UHGV virus genome: UHGV-1407012
Source of the DNA: a virus
Length of the DNA: 37,288 nucleotides
Direction: 5' to 3' (one strand)
Translations under genes and position numbers: made by a program
The notes under the pieces: generated by a model
Databases searched by the model: none
The model's input: the letters and a program-made list of their open reading frames with translations, nothing else
Told to the model about the DNA's origin: nothing
Shown: positions 672 through 25,149 of the stretch, piece after piece
How the letters are laid out: each line of letters opens with the position of its first letter
Position numbering within the stretch: position 1 is the stretch's first letter

Positions 672-958
672 GATTTACTCTCCACGACCTGGTCAATAGC
701 CATGCTAAGTGACACACCTAAAGTCTCGATATGTTGCTGAATATCCTGTAGCGTCTGCGCCTGAGATAACAGGATTTCACGGTTGCATAATTCTTTAACC
801 AGATGCTCAAACTTGCTGTAATAACCGATACGGCTTAGTGTTTCTTTCCCTGCATTCTCGCCTTCTTTGATAATTCCTCTTTCGCTAAGAATCAGATCGT
901 GTTTGGTTCCGGTAATAACGTATTTTCCGAGGTCGATGTTTAGCTTCATTGTTTTCAT
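668..958 (-). CDS. Hypothetical protein (96 aa, [21 protein letters not shown]...)
   Basis: In-frame ATG at 958 with GAGGAA RBS 5 nt upstream, inside track ORF 668..1111. Confidence 0.55.
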
Positions 959-968
959 TGTTAATTCC

Positions 969-1265
969 TCAGTCATTACTGATAGCGCCATAGCGTGAGC
1001 GGTAATTACGCAGGCGCGGGTCGATATATTCAGGGAAGTGGGTATATGTGGCTTTGCGGAATGGTCGGATTGATGTCTGGTAAATTCGCTCGCGTTCTTC
1101 TTTCTCTGCAAGCCATATACAGTGGCGAAATTCCTTTTCCTCTTTCGTTTCCTGCGGTAGAGACATTATTCGATCGTAGTTTTTTCTGAATTTATCCAGC
1201 ACCTCCGATACGGAATTGCCGGAACAGCGGCGCGGGTCATCCGCACCATACTGAGGCGCTGGCAT
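969..1265 (-). CDS. Hypothetical protein (98 aa)
   Basis: ATG at 1265 with AGGAG RBS 7 nt upstream; tight packing with neighbours. Confidence 0.6.
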   Translation of the reverse strand: MPAPQYGADDPRRCSGNSVSEVLDKFRKNYDRIMSLPQETKEEKEFRHCIWLAEKEERERIYQTSIRPFRKATYTHFPEYIDPRLRNYRSRYGAISND

Positions 1266-1278
1266 GATTTTCTCCTGA

Positions 1279-1758
1279 TTAAATTGCGTGAATAGCGTGA
1301 CGAGGGAAGGGGAGAGTTACTGGTTCCTCGTCTGGGTAGATAGGTTTGTTATGTTTGTGCCACTCGACATGGCATGACTTGCAGAGCCACATCACATCGG
1401 TTGGTTTGCTGTAGTCGCAGTGGTGCGCCTGTGGTTTACATTCTGATCCGCAGCACTCACATTGTGGTGGTCGGATTAGCTTACCGTCGCGCAAAAAATT
1501 ACCCACAATGATGTGGGCTTTTCTTTTCCATGGGTTGCTCTGAATGAACCGCTTTTTGGCTGCGTTACACCGTTCTCTTCCGCGTTCCGATGATTGATAT
1601 TCTCTCCTTGCTGATACTCGATGTGGCAATCCAGCGCGTTCTTTGTCGTATTCAGCCAGGCAAGCCCGGCAAGCGGCAGTTAATCCATCTCTGGATGCTC
1701 TTCTGATTTGAAATTCCCTTTCTTCCTTCTGTTGATGGCATCTTGAGCAGATTTTCAT
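1279..1758 (-). CDS. HNH-family endonuclease with N-terminal Cys-rich (zinc-ribbon-like) segment
   Basis: CxxC...CxxC pairs and C-terminal HHCDY...WLCKSCH...WH motif typical of HNH nucleases; AGGAG RBS. Confidence 0.7.
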   Translation of the reverse strand: MKICSRCHQQKEEREFQIRRASRDGLTAACRACLAEYDKERAGLPHRVSARREYQSSERGRERCNAAKKRFIQSNPWKRKAHIIVGNFLRDGKLIRPPQCECCGSECKPQAHHCDYSKPTDVMWLCKSCHVEWHKHNKPIYPDEEPVTLPFPRHAIHAI

Positions 1759-2241: not shown

Positions 2242-2949
2242 TTATGCCGCCTGTTTTAGCTCGTTAACTCTGATGTTCATTACCTGAACGCATTTAGCCT
2301 GCGCATCCTCATTGCCAGCCATTAATTGCCAGTCACGCTGATAACGCTCGATGAGTTTTTTCTTGTCAGTTTCTGTTGACGCATAATCGCTGAAGTCTTT
2401 CAGGATTTGTTCGCAGTCAACCGATGGAGATTTCTGGTTGGTATTTTCTGGTGATGGTTTGTTATCTGATGCTGGTATTGCCCATCCCGGCAGCGATGGA
2501 GGGAGCCAGTAAAATCCTGTTCCATCCTTGAGTTTTGCCCTGTGCCATCCCTGCTTTTTATCGAGAGATGTTTGTGCAAAACCTTCCTCAAGGTTATACA
2601 GATACCGACCGATTCCCCACTGAACGGCAGCGCGCTTCATTGCACCGGAACGACCACCTTTTACGGCTTCTACCTGCGTGTTTTCAGCAGCATCCCATTT
2701 GGTTACCCATTCGGAATCAATCCTGATTGATATGCCGCATTCAACGCCTCCGTTGTTGGGAATATCGCGGTATTCATTGCGCCATCCTGCTTTGCCGCAA
2801 ACATCGTCCAGGCGTTTCATGATTGCCCTGTTCGTGACATAAGCCAGCACCATAGCCCACACCTTTCCATCGCGTGTTTTACCGCTTTGCTGTATTCGCC
2901 ATTCGATATCTTCAGGGCTGAATGGCTCATCGAATTTGTTCAAATCCAT
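2242..2949 (-). CDS. Rad52-like single-strand annealing protein (recombinase)
   Basis: Motif ...MKRAAVQWGIGRYLY... characteristic of Rad52/Sak-type annealing proteins; sits directly upstream of ssb as in phage recombination modules. Confidence 0.7.
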   Translation of the reverse strand: MDLNKFDEPFSPEDIEWRIQQSGKTRDGKVWAMVLAYVTNRAIMKRLDDVCGKAGWRNEYRDIPNNGGVECGISIRIDSEWVTKWDAAENTQVEAVKGGRSGAMKRAAVQWGIGRYLYNLEEGFAQTSLDKKQGWHRAKLKDGTGFYWLPPSLPGWAIPASDNKPSPENTNQKSPSVDCEQILKDFSDYASTETDKKKLIERYQRDWQLMAGNEDAQAKCVQVMNIRVNELKQAA

Positions 2950-2957
2950 AATTCACC

Positions 2958-3128
2958 TCAGAATGGACACGGCCCAAGGAAATAACGCTGATTTAATACT
3001 TCGACTCGGGACAAATTAAGGCATACCCGCATTCCTTCGCGGTCGCCATTATGGCGATACCAGAGAGCTTTCTGCGTGTACATGCGTCTCTGTAACTTGC
3101 TCTCCTTCACTGTGGTTGCAAGTGACAT
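2958..3128 (-). CDS. Small hypothetical protein (56 aa, MSLATTVKESKLQRRMYTQK...)
   Basis: ATG with strong AAGGAGATATTC RBS; overlaps 3049..3207 in another frame, so only one of the two may be real. Confidence 0.3.
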   Translation of the reverse strand: MSLATTVKESKLQRRMYTQKALWYRHNGDREGMRVCLNLSRVEVLNQRYFLGPCPF

Positions 3129-18174: not shown

Positions 18175-19634
18175 TGTCGTCAGAATTCGAGGCAATGCTT
18201 GCCGATGATATGGGGCGATTCTTTTACGATCCGCTTGGCTTCGTTATGTATGCGTTTGATTGGGGAACTGGTGAGCTTGAGGGCTTTGACGGACCCGATG
18301 AATGGCAGAAAGAGTTTCTGACAGATTGGGGAGACGCAATCAGGACTAATAACTTCGACGGTGTTAAACCTGTTGAAGCCTATCGTTGCGCTACCAGCTC
18401 TGGTCACGGTATCGGTAAAAGTGCTCTAACTGCCTGGGTCATTCTGTACATCCTCAGCACTCGTCCTTTCTGCAAGGGCGTCGTGACAGCCAATACCTCT
18501 GAACAGCTTCGCACCAAAACATGGGGCGAGCTGGGCAAGTGGAAGAAGCGGTGCATCACCGGTCACTGGTTTGAGTACAACAACGGAAAAGGCAACATGA
18601 ACATCTACCATGTGGATCACATGGAATCATGGCGCTGTGACGGCCAGACGTGTCGGGAAGAGAACAGCGAGTCATTTGCTGGCCTGCATGCAGCTAACTC
18701 AAGCCCGTTCTACATCTTCGATGAAGCCTCAGCGGTTCCTGACAAAATTTGGGAAGTAGCAGAGGGCGGCCTTACTGACGGCGAGCCTTTCTGGTTTGCA
18801 TTTGGGAACCCGACGCGTAACACCGGTCGATTCCGAGAGTGCTTCCGCAAGTTCAAACACCGATGGCGTCGACGTCAAATTGATAGCCGCCTGGCAAAGA
18901 TGACCAACAAAGAGCTCATCGAAGAGTGGCGCAAGGATTACGGTGAAGACAGCGACTTCTTTAAAGTACGTGTTCGCGGTCTATTCCCATCGACATCAGA
19001 AGTCCAGTTCATACCTCAGGCATATGTGGATGAGGCCATGTCTCGCACGCTTGAACCCGGCTCTTACACATTCGCATCCAAAATAATCGGCGTTGACCCT
19101 GCTTACACAGGTAGTGATGAGGCATCAATTTACCTTCGCCAGGGTCTTCATGCGCGCCTGCTTGGCACCTACCCGAAAACAGATGACGACGTTAAGTTCG
19201 CGCAAATCGTCGCAGGATTTGAGGATGAGCATAAGGCAGATGCAGTGTTCATAGACTTCGGGTATGGCACCGGAATTCACTCAATAGGTAGGTCGTGGGG
19301 AAGGAAGTGGCAGCTGGTTAACTTTGGGGGTGAATCCAAAGACCCCGGCATGCTGAACAAGCGCGGTGAGATGTGGAACTCAATGAAGTCATGGCTCAAA
19401 GAAGGGGGAAGTATCGATGATCAGCAAACAGCTGACGAAATCGTTGCTCCTGAGTACAGGGTTAAGCTCGATGGGCGCATCGTCCTTGAGGCCAAAGATG
19501 ACATGAAGCGCCGTGGGGTTCCTTCACCAAACCGCGCTGATGCGTTAGCCCTGACGTTTGCATTCCCGGTAGTCAAAAACAAACCAACTAAGCCATTACC
19601 GGCTCCAATTCGTCCAATTTCCAGAGGTAGATAA
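18174..19634 (+). CDS. Terminase large subunit
   Basis: 486 aa; Walker-A-like [10 protein letters not shown]; acidic nuclease-domain motifs; stop overlaps the portal start. Confidence 0.85.
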
Positions 19635-21454
19635 TGGCCGACCAAGACGACAAATTGCGAACCATTCTCCTTCGGTTTGACAGGGATTGGGCAGCAAGCG
19701 ATGAGGCCAGAACCGAGGCGACAAATGACCTGTATTTTAGCCGAGTGTCGCAATGGGATGACTGGCTATCAAACTACACCACCCTGCAATATCGCGGACA
19801 ATTCGATGTTGTCCGCCCGGTGGTCAGGAAGCTGGTCGCAGAGATGCGCCGGAACCCTATCGACGTTCTCTTCCGACCAAAAGACGGTGCTAATCCTGAT
19901 GCAGCCGATGTATTGATGGGTATGTATCGTACTGATATGCGCCATAACACGGCAAAGATTGCCGTTAACGTTGGCGTTCGTGAGCAGATAGAGTCCGGCG
20001 TTGGTGCATGGCGTCTGGTCACACAGTACGAAGACAACGACCCAACAAGCAACAATCAGGTAATCCGACGCCTTCCAATCCATGAAGCCTGCTCACACGT
20101 CATATGGGACGCAAACAGCAAGCAGATGGATAAGAGCGACGCTAAGCACTGCACGGTGATTAACGCCTTGTCGCGCAATGGCTGGAAAGAGTTCGCAGAG
20201 GATTACGGTATTGATCCTGACACCCTGCCATCTTTCCAGAATCCGAACGATACATGGCTGTTTCCGTGGGTATCGAATGATGTCGTCTACGTCGCTGAGT
20301 ATTACGAGGTCGAAGAGAAGAAGGAGAAAGTCTTCATCTACCGCGACCCGCTGACAGGTGAGCCGGTCAGCTATTACCAGCAGGATATCAAAGACGTCAT
20401 CGACGACCTGGCTAATCGTGGATTCATTAAGGTAGCAGAGCGTAAGGTGAAGCGTCGTCGTGTGTATAAGTCGATCATCACCTGCACGCAGATACTGAAA
20501 GACCGAGAAAAGATAGCCGGAGAGCATATCCCAATCGTTCCAGTGTATGGAGAATGGTCATTCGCTGGTGACAAGGAGTGCTACGAGGGAGTGGTAAGGC
20601 TGACGAAAGACGGGCAGCGACTTCGCAACATGATTATGTCGTTCAACGCCGACATCGTGGCGCGGAACCCTCAGAAGAAACCTTTCTTCTATCCAGAGCA
20701 GATTGCCGGTTATGAGCACATGTACGGTGGCGATGACGCCTATCCGTACTATCTCATCAATCGCACTGATGAAAACGGAGCTGATCTACCGCCAACGCCA
20801 GTTGCGTACATGGAGGAGCCTCAGGTTCCGCAGGCCAACGCCTACATGCTTGAGGCCGCCACCGCTGCAGTGAAGGAAGTCGCTAGCCTTGGCGTTGATG
20901 CTGAGGCTGCAAACGGGCAGGTGGCTTTCGATACCGTCAATCAACTGAACATGCGGGCAGACCTTGAGACATACGTGTTTCAGGATAACCTGGCTACCGC
21001 AATGCGGCGTGATGGCGAGATTTATGCCTCAATGGTCAATGATATTTATGACGTTCCTCGTCATGTAACGCTGACACTTGAAGATGGAAGCGAGAAAGAC
21101 GTTCAACTCTATGCGCAAGTTGTCGATTACCAGTCCGGCAATGTGGTCACACTCAACGACATTCGCGGTCGCTACGAGTGCTACACCGACACCGGCCCAT
21201 CATTCCAGAGCATGAAGGAGCAGAACCGCGCAGAGATTCAGGAGTTGCTCACCAAGGTTCCGCAAGGTACTCCAGAGTTCCAGATGCTGATGCTGCAATA
21301 CTTCACGCTGCTTGACGGTAAAGGCGTCGAGATGATGCGAGAGTACGCGAACAAGCAACTGGTGATGATGGGGCTGAAGAAACCAGAAACACCTGAAGAG
21401 ATGGAGATGGTACAGCAGGCTCAACAGCAGCCGCAGCAGCCATCAGCAGCGTAA
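19634..21454 (+). CDS. Portal protein (P22 gp1-type), ending at the first of three in-frame TAA codons
   Basis: 606-aa ORF closely resembling the P22 portal core as recalled ([26 protein letters not shown]...[13 protein letters not shown]...). Confidence 0.85.
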
Positions 21455-21466
21455 ATTTAAGGGTAA

Positions 21467-21802
21467 GGTATCCTTCTGCAAGGTCAGGCTGAATTGCTCA
21501 AGGCAGAGAACCAACAGGCGCAGATTCAGGTTGAAGCCGCCAAGGTTGAAGCCCAAAACCAACTCAACGCCGCGAAGATTGCGGAAATCTTCAACAATAT
21601 GGACCTCGACAAGCAGGCAGAACTGCGTGAGTACCTCAAGCTCGTAGGTCAATTCCAGCAACAGCGCAGCAAAGATGCTCGTGCTAACGCTGAGCTGCTT
21701 CTTAAAGATGCAGACCAGACTCATTCACAACGCATGGATTTCGCGAATCTTATGCGTCAAGTTCAAATCCCCTCCGGCGGAGTAGCCGAGACACCTCAAT
21801 AA
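21467..21802 (+). other. Portal C-terminal barrel-homologous segment, same frame as the portal, separated from it by TAA-ATT-TAA-GGG-TAA
   Basis: [47 protein letters not shown]...SGGVAETPQ is colinear with the C-terminal helical barrel of P22-type portals; first possible start is TTG at 21494. Confidence 0.6.
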
Positions 21803-21815
21803 GAGAGAGTTAACC

Positions 21816-22727
21816 ATGGACCAAACCACCGACATTCAGGCTTCTGAAGAATTAACCCTGCCCGGCAATCATGCAGCGGCATCTGCTGATGGCTTAGTTG
21901 TCGATAATGCCAACGACAACGCAGGTCAGGAAGAAGGCTTCGAGATTGTCCTGAAAGACGATGAGAAACCAAAACAAGACCCGGCAACTAATGCTGAATT
22001 TGCCCGTCGCCGCATCGAACGCAAACGCCAGCGTGAGCTTGAGCAGCAGATGGAAGCGGTTAAGCGAGGAGAGTTGCCGGAGCACCTGCGGGTGAACCCT
22101 GAGTTACCAAAACAACCAGACCCTAACGATTATCTTTCCGAAGATGCACTGGCTAAGTACGACTATGACCAGAGCCGCGCACTGGCTGCCTTCCAGCAGG
22201 CAAACAGTGAATGGCAGATCAAGGCTATGGACGCACGAAGCCAGGCTGTCGCCGAGCAGGGTCGCAAAACTCAGGAGTTCACCCAGCAATCAGCGCAATA
22301 CGTCGAGGCAGCCCGTAAGCACTACGACGCAGCGGAAAAGCTCAATATCCCTGACTATCAGGAGAAAGAGGATGCATTCATGCAACTGGTGCCGACAGCA
22401 GTCGGTGCCGACATCATGCGCCTCTTCCCGGAGAAATCCGCCGCTCTCATGTATCACCTTGGTGCTAATCCTGAGAAAACACGCCAGTTGCTGGCGATGG
22501 ACGGGCAATCCGCGCTGATTGAGCTCACTCGACTGTCAGAACGTTTAACTCTCAAGCCTCGAGCCAAGCCTGTTTCAGAAGCCCCGTTACCTGATGAACC
22601 CATTCAGGGACACGCTGTTGCTGCAAATATTTCTGCGATTGAAAAGCAGATGGAAGCGGCAGCAAACAAAGGGGATGTAGAGACGTACCGCAAGCTCAAG
22701 GCGCAACTGAATAAAGGAATTCGATAA
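21816..22727 (+). CDS. Scaffolding protein (P22 gp8-type)
   Basis: 303 aa, acidic and helical, colinear with P22 scaffold as recalled; position between portal and coat. Confidence 0.8.
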
Positions 22728-24022
22728 TGGCATTAAATGAAGGTCAACTGGTCACGTATGCTCTGGATGAAATCATCGAAACCGTCCAGAATCTGACGCC
22801 AATGGCGTCCAAAGTGACAAAATACACCCCTCCGGCAGAATCCATGCAGCGTTCAAGCAACACCGTGTGGATGCCTGTTGAGCAGGAAGCGCCAACTCAG
22901 ACTGGCTGGGATTTAACTGGCAACGCTACCGGGATTCTGGAACTCTCCGTGAAATGCAACATGGGCGATCCGGATAACGATTTCTTCGAGCTTCGTGCAG
23001 ATGACCTGCGTGATGAGCGTTCTTACCGTCGCCGCATCCAGGCATCCGCCAAAAAACTGGCGAATAACATTGAGTCAGCAATTGCCAAACAGGCAACCGA
23101 AATGGGCTCACTTGTTGTTCACGATACCCGCGCAATTGGTCCATCTACTGGCCTGTCTGGCTGGGATTTTGTGTCTGATGCAGAGCGCCTGATGTTCTCC
23201 CGTGAGCTAAACCGCGATATGGGCATCAGTTACTTCCTGAACCCTGACGATTACCGCAAAGCAGGCCGCAACCTGGTAGATGGTGACATCTTCGGTCGCG
23301 TTCCTGAAGAAGCGTATCGCAACGGTACTATTCAGCGTCAGATTGCTGGCTTTGATGAAATTCTTCGCTCACCGAAACTTCCGGCAGTTACCAAGTCAAC
23401 CGCTACTGGTGTAACTGTTTCTGGTGCGCAGAAGTTTAAGCCGCAGGCATACACCCTTGATACCGATGGTAACAAAGAGAACGTCGACAACCGTGTTGCA
23501 ACGGTGACCGTATCCTCCACCACCGGATTTAAGCGCGGCGACAAAATCAGTTTCACTGGTGTGAAATTCCTGTCTCAGATGGCGAAGAACGTGCTGACTG
23601 ATGATGCTACTTTCTCAATCACCCGTGTGATCGATGGTACTCACATCGAAATTACGCCGAAACCGATTGCACTGGATGACGCGTCACTGACAAAAGAAGA
23701 GAAGGCTTACGCTAACGTAAACACCTCTCTTGCTGATACCACTCCGGTAAACGTTCTGAACGTGGCAACAACCACCGCTAACGTGTTCTGGGCTGATGAC
23801 TCAATCCGCCTGCTGTCTCAGCCGATTCCGGTAACCCATAAACTGTTTGCTGGCATGAAAACGTCTTCCTTCAGCATTCCTGGTATTGGTGTTAACGGAA
23901 TCTTCGCAACGCAGGGTGATATCAACACTCTGTCTGGTAAGTGCCGTATTGCTGTGTGGTATTCAGCATGTGCTGTACGACCAGAGGCAATTGGTGTTGG
24001 TCTGCCTAACCAGACCGCGTGA
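22727..24022 (+). CDS. Major coat protein (P22 gp5-type, HK97 fold)
   Basis: 431 aa, [22 protein letters not shown]... colinear with P22 coat as recalled. Confidence 0.85.
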
Positions 24023-24028
24023 TAACCA

Positions 24029-24055
24029 GAGGGAGCTTCGGCTCCCTTTTCTATT
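24029..24055 (+). terminator. Rho-independent terminator after the coat gene
   Basis: AGGGAGC-ttcg-GCTCCCT stem followed by TTTTCTATT. Confidence 0.65.
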
Positions 24056-24065
24056 GGAGATACCA

Positions 24066-24671
24066 ATGAGCGTAATGATTTTTCAGGCTGGCGGAGATAC
24101 CAAAATCTGGGGGCGCAAGCTGAAAACGAAAACCGTTGATCCTGATGATGTAGCTGTGCACTTAGCAAATGGCTGGTATAAGCACCCTGACGATGTTCCT
24201 GATGATCCTCTTGTTGGTGATCAAATTGGGAGTGTTGGCGGAGGTGAAACTTCCCCAGTTGATATGGGCGAAGTGTCCGACGGTTATCACACTTTTAACG
24301 AGCTTTACGCTCACCGAGTGCGGCTCTTCTCATCGCTGATGCATGCTTACGCTGAGCTTTCGTGGTGGTCTCGCAAACACAGTGACGGTGAAGAGTGGGA
24401 TGGCTGGATCATTGCTGGTATCACCACTCCAGAAGGCGAAATCACTTATCACCTACCTGTTGAAGAAATCGAGTTCCTTCCTGAAGGTACTGAGCTTGAG
24501 TTCGGGAAAGAGTGGGATGGTCATGAAGCAAATGATGTTCTTGGACGACTCCTGAGTTTGCGTCCGGCTATTGCAGAGCCAGAGCCAGAGCCAGAGCCAG
24601 AAGAAAAACAGCGTAAAAAGCCTGGTCGAAAACCTAAGGCGGCAGCAGATGAACCTGACAACGAAGGGTGA
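24066..24671 (+). CDS. Acidic hypothetical protein with PEPEPEPE linker and basic tail (201 aa); apparent inserted gene between coat and gp4
   Basis: ATG 24066 with GGAG RBS inside track ORF 23886..24671; own terminator upstream; 3' end overlaps the gp4 start by 23 nt. Confidence 0.6.
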
Positions 24672-25149
24672 TTTAGTTCTTGCGGCATTACGTAAGCTCG
24701 GTGTGGCATCAAATGCCACGTTAACCGATGTCGAACCGCAGTCTATGGAAGACGGCGTCAACGATCTTGAAATGATGATGGCGGAATGGCTTGGCGGTGA
24801 TGCGTCACCAGGTATCAACGTTGGCTACATTTTCGCTGATGCCGATGTCGCTCCAGATCCGGGCGATGAGCACGGTTTATCAAATAACGCTATCAATGCT
24901 GTCATTTTCAACCTTGCCTGCCGCATTGCTCCGGATTATGCGCTGGAAGCGCCTGCAAAACTTATAACCACTGCCAGATACGGGAAAGAGCGACTCGTCA
25001 AACTGTCTGCAATGGACAGAGCAAAAGCCGCTAAATGTAAGTCCGGTTATCCAAACCGTATGCCTGTTGGTAGCGGTAACCAGTTGGCGAAGTGGAACGG
25101 TTGGAATTACTTCCACCGAAAGGAACCTTGCGATAACGGGAGCGAATAA
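24649..25149 (+). CDS. Tail accessory factor gp4 homologue
   Basis: [47 protein letters not shown]... resembles P22 gp4 as recalled; ATG 24649 inside track ORF 24571..25149. Confidence 0.75.

What the first reader, a model, noticed from the sequence alone, without database searches (positions are those of the whole stretch)
24029..24671. Inserted acidic gene between coat and gp4 with its own upstream terminator
P22-type genomes normally run from coat directly into the gp4 gene. Here a strong terminator (24029..24055) is followed by a 201-aa ORF with a good RBS. The protein is highly acidic, has Trp-rich motifs ([23 protein letters not shown]), a PEPEPEPE linker and a short basic tail, and its 3' end overlaps the gp4 start. 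I could not assign a family. Accessory genes of this kind are frequent carriers of host-interaction or anti-defence functions.
Basis: partly seen in the sequence, partly recalled or inferred. Interest (0 to 1): 0.55.

Follow-up and report, generated by a model that had tools for sequence, protein, structure and literature searches.

The report
Known P22-like accessory gene, WDGH domain
The 201-residue gene is the long form of a small gene that all examined P22-like phages carry between coat and gene 4; its extra WDGH domain has no known function but is repeatedly fused to phage proteins that block bacterial immune signals.

Summary
The sequence features are real. There is a UUCG-loop hairpin plus U-tract at 24028-24055, a GGAG ribosome-binding site, a 201-aa acidic ORF (24066-24671), a (PE)n linker, a basic tail, and a 23-nt overlap with gene 4.

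The framing is wrong. P22 has orf69 and a stem-loop at this spot. Sf6 has gene 6 and a 't coat' terminator. Phages L, ST64T and epsilon34 carry orf186, a 62% identical homologue of this ORF.

The hairpin belongs to the conserved coat 3' end, and no promoter follows it. So this is not a self-contained insert.

The ORF is an orf69-type frame (N-domain, then basic tail) with a Pfam WDGH domain (PF25311, E 1e-39) between the two. Among 74 viral contigs with near-identical gene 4, 67 carry the short form and 7 the long form. None is frameshifted. RefSeq already annotates 99% identical E. coli copies as 'WDGH domain-containing protein'.

No function is known and no solved structure resembles it. The one lead is domain fusion: WDGH is fused to Sequestin (a verified 3'cADPR sponge), Tad2-like and Lar domains, and lies next to Tad2-like genes. 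A counter-defence role, binding or cleaving a nucleotide signal, is my best guess (about 0.35). It rests on association only.

The gene is already known; interest is moderate to low.

The parts
22727..24022 (+). Coat (P22 gp5-type major capsid) gene; upstream neighbour
   Evidence: 431-aa ORF. 98% identical DNA to the IME10, Louie and other coat genes.
24028..24055 (+). Conserved coat terminator-like hairpin ('t coat'): 9-bp stem with a UUCG loop (24028-24049), running into a U-rich tract to 24055
   Evidence: Fold dG -19.2, z -2.75. Same hairpin in IME10, Louie, epsilon34 and P22: 91% of cells paired, 2 pairs with compensatory changes. Annotated as stem_loop in P22 and as terminator in Sf6.
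24056..24059 (+). Shine-Dalgarno GGAG, 6 nt before the start codon
   Evidence: Read directly from the sequence.
24066..24671 (+). 201-aa ORF: long (WDGH-containing) allele of the orf69/orf186 gene of P22-like phages
   Evidence: phrog_3769 E 2.7e-100. 62% identical to L Orf186, epsilon34 gp6 and ST104 orf54 at the same locus. 99% identical E. coli prophage copies are annotated 'WDGH domain-containing protein'.
24066..24206 (+). N-terminal orf69-type domain (aa 1-47): beta-hairpin plus helix
   Evidence: phrog_1175 E 2e-14 on aa 1-44. Homologous to the N-terminal part of P22 orf69 and the IME10 short form at 26-39% identity. AF2 pLDDT about 80-90.
24207..24266 (+). Disordered Gly/Asp-rich linker (aa 48-67)
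   Evidence: pLDDT below 50 for residues 48-63. Length and sequence vary among homologues.
24267..24560 (+). WDGH domain (aa 68-165), Pfam PF25311
   Evidence: E 1.4e-39, 134.7 bits against a cutoff of 27, full profile 1-97. pLDDT about 95. 76.5% identical to the epsilon34 domain. The near-invariant residues of the family are all present.
24574..24601 (+). Hexanucleotide repeat (CAGAGC x4.7) encoding the (EP)n acidic linker; right-hand junction of the variable cassette
   Evidence: TRF. The repeat number ranges from 1 to about 16 units among 74 related contigs and is always in frame. Identity with IME10 resumes here.
24606..24641 (+). Basic tail [12 protein letters not shown] (aa 181-192)
   Evidence: Present in P22 orf69 (PRKGRKPKA), epsilon34 gp6 (KKPGPKPKA), Sf6 gp6 (KRGRKA) and every short form. 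The GRK codons differ synonymously between P22 and the window. Its 3' part, CCTAAGG, contains an AAGG that could serve as a Shine-Dalgarno for gene 4.
24649..25149 (+). Gene 4 (head completion / DNA stabilisation protein, 166 aa); its first 23 nt overlap the ORF
   Evidence: Translation [10 protein letters not shown].... Annotated gp4 in IME10 and in E. coli prophages.
24061..24573 (+). Allelic cassette (N-domain, linker and WDGH) that differs from the nearest relatives; the flanks on both sides are about 98% identical
   Evidence: Alignment with IME10, Louie and epsilon34. megablast covers only 79% of the coat-to-gene 4 stretch, in two pieces.

Best explanation
Identity (shown, about 0.95). 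This is the long allele of the small gene that P22-like phages carry between the coat terminator and gene 4. That gene is orf69 in P22, gene 6 in Sf6, and orf186 in L, ST64T and epsilon34. The protein is modular: an orf69-type N-domain (aa 1-47), a disordered linker, a mobile WDGH domain (aa 68-165), a length-polymorphic (PE)n linker, and a conserved basic tail.

Expression (inferred). No promoter-like site lies between the hairpin and the ORF. It therefore probably belongs to the late operon and is transcribed by antiterminated read-through of the conserved coat hairpin. It is translated from its own GGAG, and its stop lies 23 nt inside gene 4, so gene 4 translation is probably coupled to it.

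Function (inferred by association, about 0.35). The WDGH domain is probably a counter-defence module that binds, and either sequesters or cleaves, a nucleotide-derived immune signal of the Thoeris/CBASS type. The pocket would be built from its near-invariant His, Arg, Trp, Tyr and Asp residues. It would be made at the time when late structural proteins may trigger such systems. The stated confidence is for identity and function together.
For: Identity and position:
- Pfam WDGH E 1.4e-39, phrog_3769 E 2.7e-100, and phrog_1175 on aa 1-44.
- Homologues sit at the same coat-to-gene 4 position in about 40 phage records.
- P22 orf69 and Sf6 gene 6 share the N-domain and/or the tail.
- All 74 IMG/VR contigs examined with near-identical gene 4 have an intact ORF here: 67 short and 7 long.
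- 42 of 217 E. coli genomes with this junction carry the long form.

Expression:
- The hairpin is conserved, with compensatory changes.
- No promoter-like site is nearby.
- The gene 4 overlap is read directly from the sequence.

Function:
- Of 70 WDGH cluster representatives of about 200 aa or more, taken from the 150 best hits, 8 carry Sequestin (PF21825), 1 a Tad2-like domain, 1 Lar and 1 MazG.
- A Tad2-WDGH-Sequestin protein lies in the late region of a P22-like Serratia prophage.
- WDGH-Sequestin genes lie directly downstream of a Tad2-like gene.
- Sequestin was itself found through its fusions to sponges and then verified as a 3'cADPR sponge (bioRxiv 10.1101/2025.07.12.664507).
- The standalone forms I inspected sit among runs of small accessory genes in virulent phages: A511 gp21, and Bacillus phage Nate beside a NADAR gene.
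- 28 positions are at least 95% conserved across 250 domains. They include 5 His, 3 Asp, 2 Arg, 2 Trp and 2 Tyr.
Against: - The functional part rests on guilt by association only. Most WDGH proteins carry no known anti-defence partner.
- There is no PADLOC or NCBIfam hit.
- The domain is acidic in every member (median net charge -7). I could not examine oligomeric state or pocket charge.
- Five near-invariant His and three Asp fit a metal-dependent enzyme as well as a sponge.
- Known sponge genes are usually early genes (my own knowledge); this one is late.
- No experiment on orf186, orf69 or WDGH was found in the literature held.
Confidence: 0.35

Rival explanations
1. Morphogenetic helper. 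The conserved part of the gene (N-domain plus basic tail) serves head completion. It might chaperone gp4, bind DNA or the portal through the basic tail, or simply act as a translational coupling leader that sets gp4 dosage after the coat hairpin. On this view the WDGH domain is a passenger with an unrelated or minor role.
For: - The position between the coat terminator and gene 4 is fixed in P22, Sf6, epsilon34, IME10 and all 74 related contigs examined, always with an overlap of the gene 4 start.
- The tail is conserved at the protein level despite synonymous differences.
- The short form is never disrupted.
Against: - orf69 and orf186 are not among the known P22 virion components listed in the phage L paper (PMC8022706).
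- To my knowledge they were never identified as essential P22 late genes.
- The N-domain diverges fast (26-47% identity), whereas WDGH is 76% identical between the E. coli and Salmonella forms. This suggests WDGH is the more constrained part.
- WDGH occurs mostly outside structural modules in other phages.
Confidence: 0.2
2. WDGH is a small metal-dependent enzyme that acts on ordinary nucleotides or nucleic acids for host takeover or metabolism. Examples would be a phosphohydrolase or a modifying enzyme. It would not act on immune signals.
For: - The density of near-invariant His, Asp, Glu and Arg residues is unusual for a domain of about 100 aa.
- There is about 45% identity between enterobacterial and Listeria/Bacillus phage members.
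- One representative is fused to MazG/PRA-PH.
- One standalone copy lies beside a NADAR gene and near a nucleotidyltransferase.
Against: - It matches no known hydrolase fold or motif.
- By inspection it lacks the H-x-T/S pairs of 2H phosphoesterases, and it has no HD or HxHxDH motif.
- Its commonest identifiable partner is a signal sponge, not a metabolic enzyme.
Confidence: 0.15
3. One reading: an independent moron-type cassette inserted between coat and gene 4, insulated by its own terminator and possibly expressed in the lysogen for host interaction.
For: - The nearest DNA relatives lack the WDGH segment.
- A real hairpin precedes the ORF.
Against: - The hairpin predates the cassette and is present with short alleles too.
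- No promoter-like site was found.
- The ORF shares its start region and its tail with the ancestral small gene.
- There is no GC anomaly.
Confidence: 0.05
4. The protein has no function; the WDGH segment is neutral mosaic baggage.
For: - Most relatives do without the WDGH segment.
- To my knowledge no phenotype has been reported for orf69 or orf186.
Against: - All 7 long alleles in related contigs are intact, and the E. coli copies are 98-99% identical.
- The family has about 4,500 cluster representatives with strongly conserved residues.
Confidence: 0.03

Closest known systems
Orf186 of Salmonella phages L and ST64T (also epsilon34 gene 6, ST104 orf54, SE1 orf56 and the BTP1 homologue)
   Same: Same gene at the same locus, between coat and gene 4, with the same architecture: N-domain, WDGH, short linker, basic tail, and an overlap with gene 4. 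Identity is 62% over aa 1-165 and 76.5% in WDGH. The phage L genome paper describes it as 'detailed function unknown' (PMC8022706).
   Different: This is the E. coli lineage. Its N-domain is only 47% identical, and it has a (PE)n microsatellite linker that the Salmonella forms lack.
P22 orf69, the unannotated 74-104-aa ORF of IME10, Louie and Bas106, and Sf6 gene 6 / HK620 HkbT
   Same: Same locus, preceded by the same hairpin, with the same basic tail and the same overlap with gene 4. P22 orf69 and the IME10-type short ORF also share the N-domain family phrog_1175.
   Different: They lack the linker and the WDGH domain (about 120 aa). Their N-domains are only 26-39% identical to this one. The Sf6 N-terminal part is not recognisably similar by eye.
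Pfam PF25311 WDGH domain family (for example Listeria phage A511 gp21, Bacillus Tsamsa-like phages, S. pneumoniae phage IPP39, Klebsiella SopranoGao gp65)
   Same: The same domain with all near-invariant residues.
   Different: The members I inspected are standalone or carry other N-terminal extensions, and most lie in accessory gene runs rather than in the head gene cluster. No member has been characterised.
Sequestin (PF21825) and Tad2 (PF11195) immune-signal sponges
   Same: They are fused to, or adjacent to, WDGH domains in several prophages. This is the same kind of evidence that led to the discovery of Sequestin.
   Different: There is no homology. The window protein contains neither domain, and its model resembles no solved structure.
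[quoted passage not shown]
   Same: It is a possible mechanistic analogue: a small phage domain with essential His, Arg and Trp residues that acts on a cyclic nucleotide.
   Different: No relationship was detected. The phage distribution differs: Acb5 is mostly in Streptomyces and Mycobacterium phages, while WDGH is in Listeria, Bacillus, Salmonella and Streptococcus phages.

Membership tests
Pfam PF25311 WDGH domain | HMM score above the gathering threshold over the whole profile | tested here: met
   134.7 bits against a cutoff of 27; profile positions 1-97 of 97; E 1.4e-39.
Pfam PF25311 WDGH domain | Family-invariant residues present (SDGxHTF, Y-x-HR, W-x-S, H-x-DG, YH, WDGH, R161) | tested here: met
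   All 28 positions that are at least 95% conserved in 250 domains carry the consensus residue in the window protein.
orf186 / phrog_3769 (long allele of the coat-gene 4 gene in P22-like phages) | Full-length similarity | tested here: met
   phrog_3769 E 2.7e-100, covering aa 1-199 against profile 1-186. tblastn gives 62% identity to L, ST64T and epsilon34.
orf186 / phrog_3769 (long allele of the coat-gene 4 gene in P22-like phages) | Synteny: after the coat hairpin, overlapping the gene 4 start | tested here: met
orf69 / phrog_1175 (short allele) | N-domain followed directly by the basic tail | tested here: not met
   The N-domain (E 2e-14) and the tail are both present, but about 120 residues (linker plus WDGH) separate them. 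It is a derived, domain-inserted relative rather than a plain member.
Sequestin (PF21825) sponge | PF21825 domain present | tested here: not met
   The Pfam scan at E <= 1 returns only WDGH.
Tad2 (PF11195) sponge | PF11195 domain present | tested here: not met
Viral immune-signal sponge or cleaver (functional class, traits from Tal et al. 2025) | Homo-oligomer with enclosed, positively charged, nucleotide-sized pockets | not testable with these tools
   Only monomer prediction without coordinates is available. The domain has a net charge of -14 in this protein and a median of -7 in the family.
Viral immune-signal sponge or cleaver (functional class, traits from Tal et al. 2025) | Binds or cleaves a signalling nucleotide; relieves Thoeris or CBASS defence | not testable with these tools
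   This needs biochemistry and plaque assays.
Viral immune-signal sponge or cleaver (functional class, traits from Tal et al. 2025) | Fusion to, or adjacency with, known sponge domains | tested here: met
   8 of 70 long representatives carry Sequestin and 1 carries a Tad2-like domain; a Tad2-like gene is the neighbour in two loci.
Moron (autonomous promoter-gene-terminator cassette) | Own promoter upstream and own terminator downstream | tested here: not met
   No promoter-like site lies near 24022-24066. No terminator follows, because the ORF overlaps gene 4. The upstream hairpin is the conserved coat terminator.
Intrinsic terminator-like element ('t coat') | G+C-rich hairpin followed by a U-tract, conserved with compensatory changes | tested here: met
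   dG -19.2 and z -2.75. 91% of cells paired and 2 pairs changed on both sides across 5 phages. Termination efficiency is not testable here.
P22 virion structural protein | Detected in purified virions or required for assembly | not testable with these tools
   It is not among the listed P22 virion components. The 9 extra proteins in phage L virion preparations are not all named, and the supplement is not held.

The most novel reading that the evidence does not exclude
WDGH (PF25311) may be an unrecognised, very widespread family of phage domains that neutralise nucleotide immune signalling, either as a sponge or as a small His/Arg-based cleaving enzyme. It has about 4,500 clusters at 50% identity. 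P22-like phages would have grafted it into the conserved late gene next to gene 4. That would make it available when capsid proteins trigger defence, or it might be packaged through the basic tail and delivered with the DNA.
Probability: 0.3. Interest if true: 0.7.

Novelty: already known. Interest (0 to 1): 0.33.

Why it matters
The gene itself is ordinary. It has been annotated in P22-like phages under names such as orf-186 and Orf186, and RefSeq names identical E. coli copies.

Two small things are new here.
- orf186 is orf69 with a WDGH domain spliced between the N-domain and the tail. Both alleles are always intact in the relatives examined.
- WDGH is recurrently fused or adjacent to verified immune-signal sponges (Sequestin, Tad2-like). 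The same kind of clue led to the discovery of Sequestin.

If WDGH proves to be a signal binder or cleaver, it would add a large family to the phage counter-defence repertoire. It would also give a function to a long-unexplained gene of the P22 group. P22 (short form) and L or BTP1 (long form) offer ready isogenic test systems.

Tried and rejected
Searches that gave nothing:
- PDB sequence search with the protein and with a 46-sequence profile: no hits.
- Foldseek against PDB: nothing at E <= 0.001, best E 1.1.
- BFVD: only other uncharacterised WDGH proteins, one of them annotated as DUF551 domain-containing.
- The afdb50 library was not available.
- NCBIfam and PADLOC: nothing.
- Pfam on the N-domain and the short forms: nothing except a low-complexity match of the PE repeat.
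- Pfam on 52 neighbours of WDGH genes in 6 loci: only NADAR, Tad2-like, HTH and DUF families.

Literature:
- No paper held mentions the WDGH domain or PF25311, or gives a function for P22 orf69.
- Gilcrease et al. 2005 and Casjens & Thuman-Commike 2011 are not held.
- The phage L supplement is not held.

Ideas considered and rejected:
- Lockin: it is mostly beta-sheet and absent from INPHARED phage genomes.
- Acb5: different phage distribution and no detected similarity.
- TadIV-1: a T4 protein whose structure was analysed; no similarity to any solved chain was found.
- 2H phosphoesterase: by inspection there is no H-x-T/S motif.
- Foreign-DNA signature: GC is 0.49-0.52 throughout.
- Autonomous moron: no promoter.

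Tool note: the consensus terminator scan missed the hairpin, so I checked it by folding and by covariation instead.

Full report
**1. Observation**

The coat gene ends at 24022. Six bases later a hairpin, AGAGGGAGC-UUCG-GCUCCCUUU (24028-24049), runs into a U-rich tract that ends at 24055. Its dG is -19.2 kcal/mol and z is -2.75; 3 of 200 shuffles fold as well.

The pattern-based terminator scan missed it. My reading is that greedy stem extension uses up the T-tract.

GGAG at 24056-24059 lies 6 nt before ATG 24066. The ORF 24066-24671 encodes 201 aa with pI 4.6, 41 acidic against 20 basic residues, and 7 Trp.

The quoted Trp-rich motif is present. So is the EPEPEPEPE linker, encoded by a perfect CAGAGC x4.7 repeat at 24574-24601, and the basic tail [12 protein letters not shown].

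Gene 4 ([10 protein letters not shown]..., 166 aa) starts at 24649, so the overlap is 23 nt.

**2. What it is**

The protein has a full-length, high-scoring Pfam WDGH domain (PF25311) at aa 68-165: E 1.4e-39, 134.7 bits against a cutoff of 27. It matches phrog_3769 end to end (E 2.7e-100). Its first 44 residues also match phrog_1175.

tblastn against phage genomes finds 62% identical homologues in L (Orf186), ST64T (orf-186), epsilon34 (gene 6), ST104 (orf54), SE1, g341c, BTP1 and others. In epsilon34 the homologue lies exactly between coat and gene 4. The phage L genome paper describes orf186 as interrupting the L/P22 synteny, 'detailed function unknown' (PMC8022706).

P22 is not empty at this site either. 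GenBank BK000583 annotates a stem-loop after gene 5 and then orf69, which overlaps gene 4. The orf69 product is MKIAIYKPGGSIMVWGVMAQMKVIDSSELPEYVKDGWLDHPSKLLPVEADDVKPRKGRKPKAVSDADKD. It aligns with the N-domain and the tail of the window protein and lacks only the middle.

Sf6 has a 't coat' terminator and a 61-aa gene 6 with a KRGRKA tail at the same place.

The closest DNA relatives are IME10, APC_JM3.2, HZ41, Louie, Dewey and Bas106, with coat and gene 4 about 98% identical. They carry an unannotated 82-88-aa ORF made of an N-domain, (PE)n and the same tail.

The premise that P22-type genomes run from coat directly into gene 4 is therefore wrong. The gene is the long, domain-inserted allele of a conserved small gene.

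**3. Population picture**

I examined 74 IMG/VR contigs whose gene 4 is 98-100% identical and that have enough upstream sequence. Every one has an intact ORF between the hairpin and gene 4. Sixty-seven are short (74-104 aa) and 7 are long with WDGH (195-199 aa). None is frameshifted.

Length differences within each class come almost entirely from the (PE)n hexanucleotide repeat, which ranges from 1 to about 16 units and is always in frame.

In complete E. coli genomes, 217 of 5,426 carry this junction and 42 of them have the long form. Copies 99% identical to the window are annotated 'WDGH domain-containing protein'.

The long allele is not a simple insertion into the local short allele, because its N-domain is only 39% identical to that of IME10. 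The whole cassette 24061-24573 is exchanged between conserved flanks. The left flank is the hairpin and ribosome-binding site; the right flank is the PE repeat, tail and gene 4. There is no GC anomaly.

**4. The hairpin**

The hairpin is conserved in the window, IME10, Louie, epsilon34 and P22. In the alignment 91% of cells are paired, and two pairs change on both sides, for example A-U to G-C. The sample is small: five sequences from two lineages.

The hairpin precedes short and long alleles alike. It is the coat gene's 3' element, not the cassette's own terminator. No sigma-70-like site lies between it and the ORF.

By inference the gene belongs to the late operon and is reached by antiterminated read-through. 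The overlap suggests translational coupling to gene 4.

**5. Structure and family**

An AF2 model built with 46 sequences gives a confident N-domain (beta-hairpin plus helix) and a very confident WDGH domain (pLDDT about 95; helix 77-94, three strands, two short helices). The linker at residues 48-63 and most of the tail from 179 are disordered, with pLDDT below 50.

No solved structure resembles the model:
- Foldseek against PDB finds nothing at E <= 0.001; the best E is 1.1.
- PDB sequence and profile searches find nothing.
- BFVD returns only other uncharacterised WDGH proteins.

A profile search of 1.84 billion cluster representatives finds 4,498 proteins at E <= 1e-3. In 250 domains, 28 positions are at least 95% conserved. 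They are S71, D72, G73, H75, T76, F77, E79, L80, Y81, H83, R84, L87, F88, W100, S102, H105, D107, G108, G118, G124, Y128, H129, W150, D151, G152, H153, V158 and R161.

The domain is always acidic, and it usually follows a variable N-terminal extension.

In phage genomes it occurs in Listeria (A511 gp21), Bacillus, Salmonella, Streptococcus, Lactococcus and Klebsiella phages, in cyanophages and in actinophages. In the loci I inspected it usually sits among runs of small unknown genes. In one it lies beside a NADAR gene, and in one it lies between the portal and a minor capsid protein gene.

**6. Functional lead**

I scanned 70 representatives of about 200 aa or more, taken from the 150 best hits. 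Eight carry PF21825, one a Tad2-like domain, one Lar, one MazG and one DUF551.

PF21825 is labelled 'crAss001_48' in the Pfam copy used here and 'Sequestin' in the contig annotation. Tal et al. (bioRxiv 10.1101/2025.07.12.664507) found this family because it is fused to Tad2 and Acb4. They then showed that it sequesters 3'cADPR and blocks type I Thoeris. WDGH is not mentioned in that paper.

A Tad2-WDGH-Sequestin protein lies between the lysis and terminase genes of a P22-like Serratia prophage. WDGH-Sequestin genes lie immediately downstream of a Tad2-like gene in two metagenomic prophages.

By the same logic, WDGH is a candidate signal-manipulating domain. Its conserved His, Arg, Trp and Tyr residues would suit nucleotide binding, or metal-independent cleavage as described for Acb5.

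This is association only, and I rate it about 0.35. The same residue pattern fits an unrelated small metalloenzyme. The conserved frame (N-domain plus tail) may instead serve head completion or gene 4 expression.

**7. Verdict**

The sequence features are confirmed. The 'inserted gene with its own terminator' framing is not. The family is assignable and the gene is already annotated in public records, so as a feature it is already known. The function remains unknown.

The WDGH-Sequestin/Tad2 association and the orf69/orf186 domain-insertion relationship are the useful by-products. Both can be tested directly with P22, L and BTP1.

Noticed in passing
window 21452-21466 (portal gene 19634-21802): The portal reading frame carries three in-frame TAA stops within five codons. 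The window reads GCAGCGTAAATTTAAGGGTAAGG where IME10 reads GCAGAGCAAATTCAGGCGCAGGG, so AEQIQAQG becomes AA*I*G*G. That is 7 substitutions within about 18 nt. The portal would be truncated at residue 606, roughly where I recall the P22 portal C-terminal barrel beginning. In 219 E. coli genomes with this segment, the best listed full-length matches are 97.8% identical, which equals those 7 mismatches, so the stop cluster was not seen among them. It looks engineered, or like a defective prophage.
   Followed up: partly
window 24574-24601; loci L014-L093: The (CAGAGC)n repeat that encodes the (EP)n linker is a hypervariable in-frame microsatellite. It has 1 to about 16 units among 74 otherwise near-identical contigs and never breaks the frame. 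The window's 201-aa long allele is longer than the seven long alleles seen in IMG/VR, which are 195-199 aa.
   Followed up: yes
L001 (IME10) 2841-3107; L002 (Louie) from 2832: The 82-88-aa orf69-type ORF is not annotated in IME10 or Louie. IME10's gene 4 is instead annotated 201 aa long, starting inside this ORF's region. Louie annotates a different small overlapping ORF.
   Followed up: partly
L002 (Louie) 903-1430, minus strand: Louie carries an HNH endonuclease gene between the scaffold and coat genes. This is another accessory insertion in the head gene cluster of this phage group.
   Followed up: no
L009 6001-6798; L010 4057-5786; L012 4071-5870: There are multi-domain or adjacent arrangements of Tad2-like, WDGH and Sequestin. 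One is a triple fusion in a P22-like Serratia prophage, between the lysis and terminase genes. Two are pairs in which a 293-297-aa Tad2-like gene is followed by a WDGH-Sequestin gene, in the early region of prophages.
   Followed up: partly
L006 (S. pneumoniae phage IPP39) 3408-3803: A standalone WDGH gene sits inside the head morphogenesis module, between the genes annotated 'minor capsid protein' and 'minor capsid protein 2' (probably portal and MuF-like, my reading). This is a second case of the domain lodged in a structural gene cluster.
   Followed up: no
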